A DNA stretch of 64,000 bases from Candidatus Aenigmatarchaeota archaeon. GTDB lineage: Archaea; Aenigmatarchaeota; Aenigmatarchaeia; CG10238-14; SpSt-28. Position numbers: made by a program. Below are positions 53,601-56,600 of the stretch, one piece after another. The stretch spans positions 485,320-549,319 of the forward strand of contig JAWBAK010000001.1 in NCBI GenBank assembly GCA_038997165.1. The letters run 5' to 3'. The number at the start of each line of letters is the position of its first letter. Position 1 is the stretch's first letter.

Positions 53601-56600
53601 AAATTAATTCATCTAAAGTTACTTGAGATATTGGTAACCTTTTAATGGGTAAATTTAGTTCTAAATTACTAATATCTATTTGTGGTAAATCTAAAATTTC
53701 TCTAATTTTTTCTTGAATTTCTTGTTCTTTTGGAAATAACAAATCAACTTTTAATTTTAATAAAAAAATTGCAATATATAGAACTTTTGCTGGAATTCTA
53801 AAATCTAGTTCTTCTGCTTTTCTTATATATTCTAAGAATTTATCACAAAGTCTAACTAAATCTATATCATAAGGATTTAAATTTTCTATTTCTACTATAT
53901 AATAAATTAATTTTTCCCAATTTCCGCTTTCTATAATTTCAAAAATGCTAATATTGCTGCTATCTTGCATATTCCTCTATTTTTAAACTAAGTATTTTAG
54001 ATTCTCCCTCATCTAAAGTAACTCCGTATAGTGTATCTGCATACTTTACGGTAATATCGTTATGAGTTATTATAATTATTTGTGTTGTTTTAGAAATTTC
54101 CTTTAATAAGTTTGCAATTTTTTCTGAATTTATTTTATCTAAAGCTGCGTCAATTTCATCCAATGCATAAAAAGCTGTAGGTTTTATTAATTGCAAAGAT
54201 AATAAAAATAAAATAGCAACTAATGTTTTTTCTCCACCAGATAAACTATCTAAATCAACGTATCCCTTTTCTGGAAATTTAACTTTTATTAGTAATCCGC
54301 TATCTAAATTACTATTATCTTCTAATTCCAATTTTGCTTCTCCTCCAACAACTTTATTGAATAAATAATTAAATCTTTCTGAAACTAAGTTTAAAGTATT
54401 AAAGAAAGTTTCTCTTCTCTTCTTTTCTATTTCATTAATCATTTCAATTACTTTATTTTTTTCTTCCTTTATTTTATCGAATTTTTGCTTTAAATTTTCG
54501 AATTCTTCCTTAATTTTCTCAAATTCATCTATTGCTTTAAAATTTATAGGTCCTAGTGATTTTAATTCAAAATAGACCTTATCATACATTATTGTAAGTT
54601 TTTCTATGTTTTCATCGATAATTTTCTCAATATCTTTAAACTCTTCTAATTCAGTTATATATCTTTCTTTTTCAGCTTCTAGTTTAGCAATTTTAATTTT
54701 ATTATTAGCAACCTTGTTTTGCAAATTAATTTTTTCGTCGAACAATTTTTTTCTTTCTCTTCTTATTTTTTCTAATTCTTTTTCATCTATTTCAGGCAAA
54801 ACTTGAATTTCTATTGGCTTAATTTTTCTTATTTTTTCTTCTAAACTTCTTATTTCTATTTCTAGCAATCTATTTTCTTCTTCTAATTTTTTAATTATTT
54901 CTCTATACTTTTCTATTTCTTTAGATTTTGAGGTATCAGTAATAATTTTTTTTACAACATATCCTCCACTAACTGCTCCGCTTCTCTCTATTAAATCTCC
55001 TTCTAATGTTACCATTCTAACTTTTCCTATTCCAACTCTTTTTGCTGTATCTAAATCTTTAATTATTAAAGTAGTACCAAAAACAAATTCAAAAGCAGGT
55101 CGAAATTTTTTATCATATTCTATTAAATCACTTGCAATTCCTATGACACCATCTATTTCTAAAAATCTTTCATCCAATCTTTTGTAATTAATTTTATCTA
55201 GAGGTAAAAAAGTCGCTCTACCTATTTTTTCCTTTTTCAAATATTCTATGCACGCTTTTGCAACTTCAAAATTTTCAACAACAATATCAAATAAATGATT
55301 AGCTGCAGCAATTTCAATTGCTAATTGATATTCTTCTGGAACTCTCATTAAATTGTGAATAGTTCCATATACACCGTTTAAACCTAAATTTAAAATTTCT
55401 TTTACCGCAATAGGAATTTCTTTTTCGCTTCTAATACTTTCTAAACTATGTATTACATTTAGTAACCTTTCAATTTCTTTTCTATTATATTCGTACTTAG
55501 TTTTTTTAATTTCTAATTCAACTTTTAAATTACTTTCCTCCTCTTTCTTACTTATTTGTTTTATAGTTTTTAAAAGTTTTTCAATTTCTTTTTCTTTTTC
55601 ATCAATTTCTTTATCTAAATTTAAAATTTTTTCAGAAATTTCCTGAATATTTTTTTCAAATTCTTCATTTTGTTTTTTAATAATTTCTATTTGATTATCA
55701 ATTTCTTCTATTTTTTTGATTAATAAAGATTTCTTAATAGTTCTTAACTCTCTTTCTAATTCTTTATATTTTAATGCTAAATTCTTTTGTTCTTCTAATT
55801 CTTTATATTTTTTATATTTTTCTGTAATTATAATTTCAAATTCTCTTAATCTTTGTTCTATTTTTTCTAGATCTTGTAAAGCTTTTTCTTTCTTTTGATT
55901 ATATTCATAAATTCCAGAAAGTTGATCGATAATTTCTCTTCTTTCCTTTTCACTCATTTCAACTATTCTAGTTACATCTCCTTGTAAAATTATATTATAA
56001 CCATCTGGCCTTAAGTTTGCAAAACTTAATAATTCTAATACTCTTTCTCTAGTTTCGGTTTTATCATTTATTTTATAAATTGTATGACCTTTTCTATTAA
56101 CTTTTCTAGTTATTATAACTTCATCGCTATCTATTGGAAATTTTCTATCCGAATTGTCAAAAATTATCGAAACAGAAGCTATATCAGCTGGCTTTTTAGT
56201 TTCAGTTCCTCTAAAAATTAATTCACTTAATTTTTCTGCTCTCATTTGTTTTGCAGAAATTTTTCCCAAAACAAAACAAATTGCATCTATTATATTAGAT
56301 TTTCCACTTCCATTAGGTCCTATTATTACGTTTAAACCATTTATAAACTGAATAACAGTTTTTCTATTAAAACTTTTAAAACCCTGTAAAATAATTTTTT
56401 TAATGTAAACCATAATTAATATACGACAAAGTTAAAAATTAAATAAAATATTAAAAAATTAAACTAGATAAAATTACAATTTTATAATTTATACGGGCCG
56501 GTAGCTCAGTGGAAGAGCGCCCGCCTTGCAAGCGGGAGGCCCGGGGTTCGAATCCCCGCCGGTCCATTTCATTTTATTTAGGATAAATAATTACTCTATT

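What a model noticed while it worked through the whole genome (the two positions that open the first line are those of the whole stretch)
53960..56413. SMC with coiled-coil arms of about half the usual length, fixed across Aenigmatarchaeota
g00559 is a complete SMC (heads, hinge at aa 346-460) of only 817 aa against about 1,170-1,200 aa in well-studied prokaryotes: each arm strand has about 180 residues instead of about 340. This is not a truncation of this bin: nearly all close homologues have the same length. About 180 residues is two steps of about 84 below the Bacillus arm (344, about 260, about 176), so it would fall on the periodic length pattern found by arm-resizing experiments.
Evidence so far: pfam.tsv: SMC_N 3-803 covering both head halves, SMC_hinge 346-460; Swiss-Prot best hit aligns 1-814 to 1-1159 of a 1177-aa Smc. 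find_homologous_proteins: of the best 120 hits (45-99% identity, those named all Aenigmat(arch)aeota) 110 are 804-855 aa and the other 10 (983-1380 aa) carry intein/LAGLIDADG Pfam domains. ScpA g00558 and ScpB g00536 are present. Periodicity: Burmann et al. 2017, PMC5344682 (passages read, call 62: functional arms at 344 and 253-267 aa, multimodal natural lengths).
(Added by a program. Inside this text positions count along the whole contig: contig position 485,320 is position 1 of the stretch shown here. "Call 12" and the like, gene names such as g00115 and contig names such as C1 are that model's own, and its searches are not shown. The text may have been shortened before it was handed on; [...] marks where a part breaks off. 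The agent that wrote the report below was given it as the finding of a first reader that could run no searches.)

Follow-up and report, generated by a model that had tools for sequence, protein, structure and literature searches.

The report
Natural half-length-arm SMC of DPANN archaea
This tiny archaeon's chromosome-organising SMC protein is complete but has coiled-coil arms only half the usual length, a rare class that a 2017 study had already glimpsed and that turns out to be the rule in at least two archaeal phyla.

Summary
Window 53960-56413 (minus strand) encodes an intact 817-aa SMC with Walker A, hinge, signature and Walker B motifs. scpA overlaps its 3' end, scpB lies in the same window, and the genome holds no second SMC.

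Between conserved landmarks the arm strands measure 180 and 140 aa (mean 160). In 106 full-length archaeal relatives the medians are 352 and 310 (mean 332). Both strands are shorter by the same amount. Profile alignment and two AlphaFold models place the loss in the middle of the arm. The head-proximal module with the "joint" and a short hinge-proximal module are kept.

The short form is fixed in the phylum: 349 of 371 genomes match, and none of the 150 listed frames exceeds 886 aa. It also occurs in Undinarchaeota and in a third clade outside the phylum.

Bürmann 2017 already reports a possible minor mode at 163 aa, resting on 4 of 3,337 sequences. "About 180 aa" mixes two ways of measuring; by the paper's measure this class is about 160 aa. 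The B. subtilis truncation screen showed essentially no growth at 136-174 aa, so the fit to the periodic pattern is an extrapolation.

Earlier notes of this scan describe short-armed SMCs elsewhere, but those lack a hinge.

The parts
53960..56413 (-). smc gene, 817 aa plus stop codon
   Evidence: ORF list and translation; SMC_N and SMC_hinge; TIGR02169 at 729.7 bits against a 729.4 cut-off
55910..56413 (-). N-terminal head half, aa 1-168, with Walker A at 32-39 and Q-loop Q144
   Evidence: Motif positions; invariant columns; strands and helices of the model; best solved relative is the Pyrococcus yayanosii Smc head 5xei, E 4.6e-113
55385..55909 (-). N-terminal arm strand, aa 169-343: helix 169-284, break 285-291, helix 292-325, hinge-junction helix 335-343
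   Evidence: AlphaFold2 model, mean pLDDT 85.6; aa 136-290 align with confidence 8.8 to the head-proximal 121-275 of a full-length SMC
55541..55561 (-). Helix break on the N strand, aa 285-291; inferred junction of the central deletion
   Evidence: pLDDT under 50 at 280-291; alignment confidence falls from 8.8 to 4.4 at this point
54962..55378 (-). Hinge dimerisation domain, aa 346-484
   Evidence: Pfam SMC_hinge 346-460, 117 bits; invariant glycines G472, G479, G483 and G484; hinge structures 4rsj, 3nwc and 1gxl match
54434..54961 (-). C-terminal arm strand, aa 485 to about 660: helix 493-529, break 530-543, helix 544-592, joint-like breaks 593-602 and 620-626. The border with the head is approximate.
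   Evidence: Model; aa 536-596 align to 838-898 (confidence 7.4) and 598-702 to 899-1003 (8.9) of the full-length comparator
54785..54826 (-). Helix break on the C strand, aa 530-543, with two prolines; lies opposite the N-strand break
   Evidence: pLDDT under 50 at 532-543; prolines 49 and 56 aa after the hinge anchor; the deletion maps here in hhalign
54536..54637 (-). Joint-like region of the C strand, aa 593-626: two breaks flanking a 17-aa helix, opposite a continuous N helix
   Evidence: Model. The same pattern appears in the full-length comparator, with breaks at 893-903 and 919-927. It matches the description of the Smc joint in PMC5526789 (passages).
53963..54433 (-). C-terminal head half, aa about 661-817: signature LSGGEK 724-729, Walker B D752/E753, H784
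53269..53970 (-). scpA (kleisin), 233 aa; its start overlaps the end of smc by 11 bases
   Evidence: Pfam SMC_ScpA 42.3 bits (cut-off 24.6) and Rad21_Rec8 24.5 bits (cut-off 22.7); NCBIfam ScpA models match below their cut-offs
37302..37796 (+). scpB (kite subunit), 164 aa
   Evidence: Pfam SMC_ScpB 111.3 bits against a 27.4 cut-off; TIGR00281 84.2 bits, just under its 89.2 cut-off

Best explanation
This is the organism's single, canonical SMC, the core of an Smc-ScpA-ScpB complex. Its antiparallel coiled-coil arm is about half the usual length, roughly 157 residues per strand from head to hinge junction. At the textbook rise of about 0.15 nm per residue (recalled, not measured) that is about 23 nm, against about 47 nm for full-length arms.

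Shown:
- The ATPase motifs, hinge, kleisin and kite are intact.
- There is no second SMC in a 94.5% complete genome.
- Both strands are shorter than in full-length relatives by the same amount, about 165-172 aa.
- The short form is universal in the phylum and also present in Undinarchaeota and in a third clade.

Inferred:
- The arm arose by loss of the central 155-165 residues of each strand. This fused the head-proximal module of about 120 aa, which keeps the joint, to a hinge-proximal module of 35-50 aa. The fusion point is now a helix break.
- The event was ancient, and a single origin is not rejected.
- The complex still dimerises at the hinge, zips its arms into a rod and uses ATP to entrap or extrude DNA, with a smaller ring and probably a smaller step.

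It belongs to the rare natural length class that Bürmann et al. 2017 recorded as a possible minor mode at 163 aa.
For: Identity as SMC.

Only SMC in the genome: one search finds SMC_N over its cut-off in this gene and in one other long frame, the 781-aa Rad50 (named). A 234-aa frame passes only with its neighbours. The weaker 583-aa hit is RLI.

Arm lengths from landmark HMMs, over 283 proteins of 500 aa or more:
- 4 lacked an anchor and 2 were mis-mapped (P0194, P0250); these were set aside.
- Short class, n=160: N strand median 187, C strand median 147, mean 152-173. P0001 is 180/140.
- Full-length class, n=106: 352/310, mean 300-347.
- Five proteins lie at 223-234 and six at 258-299.

Matched shortening: the N-minus-C difference is 40-41 in the short class and 41-44 in the full-length class.

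Phylum survey: 349 of 371 genomes match, and 98 of 98 high-quality genomes. Of the 150 listed frames, 133 are 792-886 aa, 17 are shorter (300-773 aa, not examined) and none is longer.

Anatomy: AlphaFold2 models of P0001 (pLDDT 85.6) and of a full-length comparator (pLDDT 83.4), and the hhalign mapping.

Wider spread:
- Undinarchaeota SMCs have arms of 164-165.5 aa.
- The P0215/P0136 clade has arms of 162-171 aa and is only 37-40% identical to anything in the 371 genomes of the phylum.

Prior record: the 163-aa minor mode, and Table S4 rows at 193, 173, 160 and 159 aa.
Against: No experiment exists on any member, so dimerisation, rod formation and DNA transactions are inferred from homology.

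TIGR02169 is passed by only 0.3 bits. Only 147 of the 371 phylum genomes pass that cut-off, as expected when a third of a 1165-position profile is missing.

The placement of the deletion rests on two predicted models and a profile alignment. That alignment has low confidence on the hinge-proximal segments (4.4 and 1.3). Plain sequence alignment cannot place the deletion at all, because arm segments align in several registers.

Full-length arms also occur in other small-genome DPANN lineages: proteins labelled Nanoarchaeota are 1164 aa and those labelled Altiarchaeota 1113-1130 aa. Genome reduction alone therefore does not explain the short arm.
Confidence: 0.85

Rival explanations
1. Tuned-length reading. 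The arm of about 160-167 aa is one of the discrete permitted lengths, two coiled-coil superhelical periods below the standard arm, so that head and hinge keep the same rotational phase.
For: Bürmann 2017 found a 91-aa period in viability, with natural modes at 238, 341 and 515 aa and possibly at 163 and 423 aa. 344 minus 2 x 91 is 162, and P0001 measures 160.

The class is narrow: 152-173 aa in 160 proteins, and 164-165.5 aa in the 26 whole proteins that rank above the first Aenigmatarchaeota hit in the Undinarchaeota search, except one mis-mapped row.

Shortenings of about 100 aa arose at least twice independently in this sample, 337 to 234 and about 329 to 223-232. The AU test rejects a single clade for them at p = 6.7e-49, although that group was named after a first tree had been seen.
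Against: The steps seen here are unequal: 332 to 232 is 100, but 232 to 160-167 is only 65-72.

Full-length relatives in the same sample vary continuously from 300 to 347 aa, about half a period, and six lie at 258-299.

The B. subtilis truncation screen showed no functional window at 136-174 aa, and the paper calls the 253-267 aa window the site of its shortest functional construct.

The short class may have a single origin. Its narrow length could then be inheritance plus the need to keep the two strands matched, with no selection for phase.
Confidence: 0.4
2. Frozen-accident reading. One ancient matched deletion removed the middle of the arm in a DPANN ancestor. The resulting length has no special meaning and is conserved only because changing one strand alone is deleterious.
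For: A single origin of all short forms is not rejected. The tree that holds them together has a log-likelihood 14 higher than the free search, with p-AU 0.73.

The deletion junction is still visible as a low-confidence helix break opposite two prolines.

The N-minus-C offset is preserved.
Against: The length is held within about 20 aa over more than 60% sequence divergence and across at least two phyla.

The value coincides with the paper's predicted and observed minor mode.

Matched indels of 8-9 aa on both strands do occur inside the class, for example 180/140 against 189/148. Length can therefore drift, yet it stays in a narrow band.
Confidence: 0.4
3. Functionally diverged SMC. With arms this short the complex no longer extrudes loops and serves another role, such as local bridging or repair.
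For: B. subtilis mini-Smc proteins of improper length still hydrolyse ATP and reach loading sites but fail to relocate. Arms of 136-174 aa were non-functional there.
Against: All catalytic and hinge residues are invariant across 104 sequences. ScpA and ScpB are retained. It is the only SMC in the genome. The joint is retained in the model.
Confidence: 0.1
4. Artefact: a truncated or mis-assembled gene, or an SMC-like paralogue such as Rad50 or ASRP.
For: None beyond the unusual length and the marginal NCBIfam score.
Against: The same length occurs in 110 of 120 homologues and across the phylum. A hinge is present where Rad50 would have a zinc hook. The Rad50 and ASRP models score 89 and 81 bits against cut-offs of 700 and 300. 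The true Rad50 lies elsewhere in the window.
Confidence: 0.02

Closest known systems
Prokaryotic Smc of Smc-ScpAB (archaeal type, NCBIfam TIGR02169; Pyrococcus Smc structures 5xei, 4rsj, 1xew)
   Same: Head halves, Q-loop, signature motif, Walker B, hinge with its conserved glycines, joint-like interruption of the C strand, adjacent kleisin ScpA, and ScpB in the genome.
   Different: The arms are about 160 aa by landmarks, against a median of 332 in 106 full-length relatives. The central 155-165 aa of each strand is missing, including the main mid-arm break seen in the full-length model.
The 'possible minor mode at 163 AA' of natural prokaryotic Smc arms (Bürmann et al. 2017, Mol Cell, PMC5344682)
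   Same: Same architecture and the same length class. The Table S4 row GI 735013947 has HeadN 4-168, hinge domain 313-481 and HeadC 656-796, giving arms of 145/175, mean 160. P0001 measures 160 by landmarks.
   Different: In the paper the mode rests on 4 of 3,337 sequences under 200 aa. No taxon is named for them in the parts I read: sections 8, 9, 10, 12, 14 (part 1), 26 and 48; Table S4 parts 1 and 23; and a search of mmc1.pdf. Here the class is shown to be the fixed state of whole phyla, and its anatomy is described.
Engineered B. subtilis Mini-Smc (Bürmann et al. 2017)
   Same: Same design principle: the hinge plus a short hinge-proximal coiled coil sits on a shortened head-proximal arm (Figure 2A legend). 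The inferred natural junction here has that layout.
   Different: Engineered arms worked only at 253-267 aa among the shortened constructs, and 136-174 aa gave essentially no growth. The natural protein is fixed at 152-173 aa.
SMCs of about 940-980 aa (the 238-aa mode)
   Same: A discrete, matched shortening of both strands with the hinge retained. Examples in this sample are P0135, P0145 and P0178, with arms of 223-234 aa.
   Different: They lose about 100 aa per strand, not about 165-172. They arose independently within full-length clades.
Hinge-less short-armed SMCs
   Same: Shortened arms on canonical heads.
   Different: Those lack the hinge (passages; notes). This protein has a full hinge scoring 117 bits.

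Membership tests
Prokaryotic SMC (Smc-ScpAB; TIGR02169 / Pfam SMC_N + SMC_hinge) | Split ABC-type ATPase head: Walker A at the N terminus; signature motif, Walker B and H-loop at the C terminus | tested here: met
   GPNGSGKS 32-39, Q144, LSGGEK 724-729, D752/E753 and H784. All lie in invariant or nearly invariant columns of 104 sequences. SMC_N covers 3-803.
Prokaryotic SMC (Smc-ScpAB; TIGR02169 / Pfam SMC_N + SMC_hinge) | Central hinge dimerisation domain | tested here: met
   PF06470 at 346-460, 117.3 bits against a 22.5 cut-off; matches to solved hinges 4rsj, 3nwc and 1gxl
Prokaryotic SMC (Smc-ScpAB; TIGR02169 / Pfam SMC_N + SMC_hinge) | Curated whole-protein score of the equivalog model | tested here: met
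   729.7 bits against a 729.4 cut-off, so marginal. Only 147 of 371 phylum genomes pass it.
Prokaryotic SMC (Smc-ScpAB; TIGR02169 / Pfam SMC_N + SMC_hinge) | Two length-matched helical strands that fold back into one antiparallel coiled coil | tested here: met
   The model shows long helices on both sides of the hinge. The N-minus-C offset is 40-41, as in full-length SMCs at 41-44. Pairing itself is predicted, not measured.
Prokaryotic SMC (Smc-ScpAB; TIGR02169 / Pfam SMC_N + SMC_hinge) | Arm of about 340 aa (about 47-50 nm) | tested here: not met
   160 aa by landmarks, against a median of 332 in 106 relatives
Prokaryotic SMC (Smc-ScpAB; TIGR02169 / Pfam SMC_N + SMC_hinge) | Head-proximal joint: C strand split into short helices against a continuous N helix | tested here: inconclusive
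   The pattern is present in the predicted models of P0001 (breaks 593-602 and 620-626) and of the full-length comparator. It matches the published description (passages). There is no experimental structure.
Prokaryotic SMC (Smc-ScpAB; TIGR02169 / Pfam SMC_N + SMC_hinge) | Kleisin ScpA and kite ScpB partners encoded in the genome | tested here: met
   ScpA is adjacent and passes the Pfam cut-offs. ScpB scores 111.3 bits in Pfam. The NCBIfam equivalog cut-offs are not reached for either. Binding was not tested.
Prokaryotic SMC (Smc-ScpAB; TIGR02169 / Pfam SMC_N + SMC_hinge) | ATP-dependent DNA entrapment or loop extrusion | not testable with these tools
   Needs biochemistry
Discrete arm-length classes of Bürmann et al. 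2017 (minor mode at 163 aa) | Mean strand length near 163 aa by the paper's domain borders | tested here: met
   160 by my landmarks. The offsets to the paper's borders cancel: about -34 on the N strand and about +35 on the C strand, judged from the look-alike Table S4 row. This is an estimate; the paper's pipeline was not rerun.
Discrete arm-length classes of Bürmann et al. 2017 (minor mode at 163 aa) | A functional window at that length in the arm-resizing experiments | tested here: not met
   Table S5, sheet Smc: arms of 174-136 aa gave zero colony area in 34 of 39 rows, with a maximum of 0.089 cm2 at 158 aa
Discrete arm-length classes of Bürmann et al. 2017 (minor mode at 163 aa) | Differs from the standard arm by a whole number of superhelical periods (91-99 aa) | tested here: inconclusive
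   The difference is 165-172 aa per strand, or 1.7-1.9 periods. Full-length relatives themselves span 300-347 aa.
Rad50 / ASRP / other SMC-like ATPases | Zinc hook or no hinge; family-specific profile score | tested here: not met
   A hinge is present. Rad50 PRK03918 scores 89 bits against a 700 cut-off and ASRP 81 against 300. The genome's Rad50 is a separate 781-aa gene.

The most novel reading that the evidence does not exclude
The arm of about 160-167 aa is a third permitted, 'tuned' SMC arm length, two superhelical periods below the standard. It was reached once by a matched central deletion in an early DPANN archaeon and has been held ever since in Aenigmatarchaeota, Undinarchaeota and a Nanohaloarchaea-labelled clade. 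If so, nature has solved a length regime that systematic truncation of B. subtilis Smc could not reach. A complete Smc-ScpAB motor would then work with rods of about 23 nm, giving a compact natural system for structure work and for testing how arm length sets the step size of loop extrusion.
Probability: 0.35. Interest if true: 0.6.

Novelty: new member of a known kind. Interest (0 to 1): 0.45.

Why it matters
How the long SMC arm takes part in DNA loading and loop extrusion is an open question. The main evidence that its length is "tuned" comes from one engineered series in B. subtilis plus a multimodal natural length distribution. The shortest natural mode in that work rested on four sequences.

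This finding shows that the mode is the fixed state of whole archaeal phyla, with an intact hinge, joint, kleisin and kite. That turns a statistical blip into a usable natural experiment.

The complex is about 30% smaller and so easier to image whole. It also has a defined architecture (head-proximal module plus hinge-proximal module) that can be transplanted into model organisms, to ask whether function depends on length, on phase, or on which modules are kept. If the complex extrudes loops, the relation between arm length and step size becomes measurable.

Tried and rejected
(1) Locating the deletion by plain sequence alignment. In phmmer runs of P0001 against full-length SMCs, the arm segments align in several overlapping registers, so this gives no answer.

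(2) A two-deletion model, with about 80 aa lost on each side of a conserved mid-arm break. It was suggested by comparing helix breaks in the two models and by proline/glycine maps. I dropped it in favour of a single central deletion. hhalign aligns P0001 136-290 with confidence 8.8 to the head-proximal 121-275 of the comparator. This equates the P0001 break with a minor head-proximal break of the full-length protein and not with its main break.

(3) An independent origin of the Undinarchaeota short SMC. FastTree and the quick IQ-TREE tree placed P0149 away from the main short clade. The AU test does not reject one clade, and the constrained tree is the better one. No claim of convergence is made.

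(4) Taxa behind the paper's short rows. Table S4 gives GI numbers only, and a search of mmc1.pdf found no taxon.

(5) Literature on short SMC arms in DPANN. Two full-text searches and passages of PMC8665677 and PMC12153180 turned up nothing on it. This covers the held library only.

(6) The weak SMC_N hit at contig position 454446-455744 as a possible second SMC-like protein: it is RLI/ABCE1.

(7) The Heimdallarchaeota label on one member of the P0215 cluster. A clade-mate is labelled Nanohaloarchaea, so the true lineage is left open.

(8) Complex prediction, fold search, the protein atlas and the read-mapping tools were not used. No claim here depends on them.

Correction: an earlier count said 33 of 39 rows were zero. 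The correct count is 34 of 39.
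Full report
**The gene.** Window 53960-56413 is an open frame of 817 codons on the minus strand.
- Pfam finds SMC_N over residues 3-803 and SMC_hinge at 346-460.
- NCBIfam's archaeal SMC equivalog TIGR02169 matches in three stretches at 729.7 bits, 0.3 bits over its cut-off. The Rad50, ASRP and RecN models score far below theirs.
- Walker A (32-39), Q144, the signature LSGGEK (724-729), Walker B D752/E753 and H784 are present. They sit in invariant or nearly invariant columns of a 104-sequence alignment of the short family.
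- The best solved relatives are Pyrococcus yayanosii Smc head-coiled-coil (5xei, E 4.6e-113) and hinge-coiled-coil (4rsj, query 273-537).

**Partners and paralogues.**
- scpA (233 aa, 53269-53970) overlaps the smc stop by 11 bases.
- scpB lies at 37302-37796.
- The genome is 652 kb in 4 contigs and 94.5% complete. SMC_N passes its cut-off only in this gene, in a 781-aa Rad50 next to Mre11, and, with its neighbours in the frame, in a 234-aa frame.
- A weaker 583-aa hit is RLI.

**Not a truncation.**
Of the best 120 homologues (45-99% identity), 110 are 804-855 aa. The 10 longer ones (983-1380 aa) all carry intein domains.
- In 371 genomes of the window's phylum, 349 have a TIGR02169 match, and 98 of 98 high-quality genomes do. 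Of the 150 listed open frames, 133 are 792-886 aa and 17 are shorter (300-773 aa; not examined). None is longer.

**Measuring the arm.** I built HMMs for the N head, hinge and C head from the family alignment. I then read the positions equivalent to four conserved residues of P0001 (G167, G347, G484, N624) in 283 proteins of 500 aa or more. Four proteins lacked an anchor and two were mis-mapped; these were set aside.

| Class | n | N strand (median) | C strand (median) | Mean range |
|---|---|---|---|---|
| P0001 | 1 | 180 | 140 | 160 |
| Short | 160 | 187 | 147 | 152-173 |
| Intermediate | 5 | - | - | 223-234 |
| Intermediate | 6 | - | - | 258-299 |
| Full-length | 106 | 352 | 310 | 300-347 (median 332) |

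The N-minus-C difference is 40-41 in the short class and 41-44 in the full-length class. Both strands have therefore lost the same amount, about 165 aa, or 170-172 aa for P0001. The sample is biased towards relatives of the query.

**Anatomy.** The AlphaFold2 model of P0001 (104-sequence alignment, mean pLDDT 85.6) runs in this order:
- continuous N helix 169-284
- break 285-291 (pLDDT under 50)
- helix 292-325
- hinge
- helix 493-529
- break 530-543 (pLDDT under 50, with two prolines)
- helix 544-592
- two short breaks, 593-602 and 620-626, flanking a 17-aa helix
- the helix that enters the head

A C strand split against a continuous N helix is how the Smc joint is described in PMC5526789 (passages).

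A model of a full-length relative labelled Altiarchaeota (P0203, 1118 aa, pLDDT 83.4) shows the same joint pattern at 893-927. It also has minor N-strand kinks at 202-204 and 274-276, and a main mid-arm break at 351-356 / 750-755.

The profile-profile alignment gives:

| P0001 | P0203 | Confidence |
|---|---|---|
| 136-290 | 121-275 | 8.8 |
| 291-324 | 279-312 | 4.4 |
| 493-530 | 639-683 | 1.3 |
| 536-596 | 838-898 | 7.4 |
| 598-702 | 899-1003 | 8.9 |

The segments next to the hinge (291-324 and 493-530) are the ones placed with low confidence. The two strands must pair. The simplest reading is therefore that the central 155-165 residues of each strand are missing, including the main break of the full-length arm, and that the junction is the present break. 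This is inference from predictions. Plain sequence alignment cannot decide it.

From residue counts, 157 residues from head to hinge junction against 318 in P0203, the rod should be about half as long. At the textbook rise per residue, which I recall and did not measure, that is about 23 nm against about 47 nm.

**Spread beyond the phylum.**
- A search with an 833-aa SMC labelled Naiadarchaeales returned 826-849-aa proteins. It also returned 890-908-aa proteins, one of them labelled Undinarchaeales. Their arms all measure 164-165.5 aa. Aenigmatarchaeota short SMCs rank next, ahead of full-length ones. NCBI taxonomy places Naiadarchaeales in Undinarchaeota.
- One row (P0299) was mis-mapped, and one partial protein lacked an anchor.
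- A further clade (P0136, P0186, P0169, P0215; arms 162-171 aa) is only 37-40% identical to anything in the 371 phylum genomes. It carries submitter labels Nanohaloarchaea and Heimdallarchaeota, which I could not verify.

**Origins.**
- In a FastTree of 156 head-plus-hinge sequences, 40 of 41 short forms make one clade (support 0.993). Its sister group there is eight SMCs with arms of 308-322 aa (1101-1130 aa), two of which carry Altiarchaeota labels.
- The quick IQ-TREE of 67 rows did not recover that sister relation.
- The Naiadarchaeales protein fell elsewhere. The AU test does not reject a single clade of all short forms; the constrained tree is 14 log-likelihood units better, with p-AU 0.73. 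A single ancient origin is thus the economical reading, and I make no claim of convergence.
- By contrast, the forms of about 230 aa arose at least twice (AU p = 6.7e-49). That group was named after a first tree had been seen.

**What was already known.** Of Bürmann et al. 2017 (PMC5344682) I read sections 8, 9, 10, 12, 14 (part 1), 26 and 48, passages by search, Table S4 parts 1 and 23, Table S5 parts 1 and 5, and ran a search of mmc1.pdf. I did not see the figures.
- In Table S4 only 4 of 3,337 prokaryotic sequences are under 200 aa: 193, 173, 160 and 159. One row (HeadN 4-168, hinge domain 313-481, HeadC 656-796) has the architecture of the present protein.
- Relative to that row, my landmarks are shifted by about -34 on the N strand and +35 on the C strand. 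The means are therefore comparable, and P0001 at 160 falls in that mode.
- The paper's viability period is 91 aa, and 344 minus 182 is 162.
- However, the truncation data show no functional window there. For arms of 174 to 136 aa, colony area is zero in 34 of 39 rows, with a maximum of 0.089 cm2 at 158 aa. The well-growing near-wild-type rows give 1.4-2.4 cm2. The text calls the 253-267 aa window the site of the shortest functional construct.

**Is the length tuned?**
- For: the class is narrow, it coincides with the predicted value, and independent steps of about 100 aa occur elsewhere in the tree.
- Against: the steps are unequal (100, then 65-72). Full-length relatives vary continuously over about half a period. 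A single origin means that inheritance plus strand matching could explain the narrowness.
- I put tuning and frozen accident at about 0.4 each.
- Genome reduction alone is not the cause. SMCs labelled Nanoarchaeota (1164 aa) and Altiarchaeota (1113-1130 aa) keep long arms.

**Literature.** Two full-text searches and passages of PMC8665677 and PMC12153180 gave no description of short-armed, hinge-bearing SMCs in DPANN archaea. This covers the held library only. Earlier notes of this scan describe short-armed SMCs in other genomes, but those lack a hinge. I did not test them.

**Verdict.** This is a real and well-conserved natural mini-SMC. The class was already visible as a minor mode in 2017, so this is a new, well-characterised member of a known rare kind and not a new kind. 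Its value lies in lineage-wide fixation, the retained joint, hinge and ScpAB, and the contrast with the negative B. subtilis truncations at the same length.

Noticed in passing
homologues of window 53960-56413 (P0018, P0041, P0047, P0056, P0060, P0070, P0072, P0102, P0111, P0114): Ten of the 120 closest SMC homologues carry an intein (PF14890, six of them also LAGLIDADG PF14528). For P0072 and the other intein-length rows, the match to the query resumes at residue 37-38, which puts the insertion in or right after the Walker A loop. One short row of Bürmann's Table S4 has its N head starting at residue 574, which would fit the same kind of insertion.
   Followed up: partly
window 59478-63716 (+): An mre11 (398 aa), rad50 (781 aa) and SbcD-related phosphoesterase (232 aa) cluster lies 3 kb from smc. 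This Rad50 is about 100 aa shorter than the 872-895-position archaeal Rad50 profiles it matches, so its coiled coil may also be shortened.
   Followed up: partly
window 52665-53318 (-): An ORF of about 205-217 aa lies directly downstream of scpA and overlaps it. It has a hydrophobic N-terminal stretch and no Pfam or NCBIfam match, even at E = 5. Whether it is co-transcribed with smc-scpA, or conserved there in relatives, was not checked.
   Followed up: partly
proteins P0307-P0312: These 890-908-aa SMCs, one of them labelled Undinarchaeales, are about 70 aa longer than the Naiadarchaeales ones, yet they have identical landmark arm lengths (183 / 145-147). The extra residues must lie in a head, the hinge or a terminus. 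They were not located.
   Followed up: no
proteins P0135, P0145, P0178 (943-963 aa): Intermediate-arm SMCs (223-234 aa) are nested inside two different full-length clades. This indicates repeated, independent, matched losses of about 100 aa per strand. Their organisms are unnamed in the sources.
   Followed up: partly
N strand about 121 residues after the head anchor (P0001 aa 285-291; P0203 aa 274-276): A glycine or helix kink sits about 121 residues past the conserved GIxEY motif. It recurs in 8 of the 14 SMCs mapped: in 7 of 10 full-length or intermediate forms and in the Naiadarchaeales short form. It may be a conserved structural landmark of the arm.
   Followed up: partly
window 56574-58501 (-): Upstream of smc on the same strand lie an M16-family peptidase (396 aa) and a class-I glutamine amidotransferase (242 aa). 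Downstream of the unknown ORF lies a xylose-isomerase-like TIM-barrel endonuclease (276 aa). These look like ordinary housekeeping neighbours.
   Followed up: no
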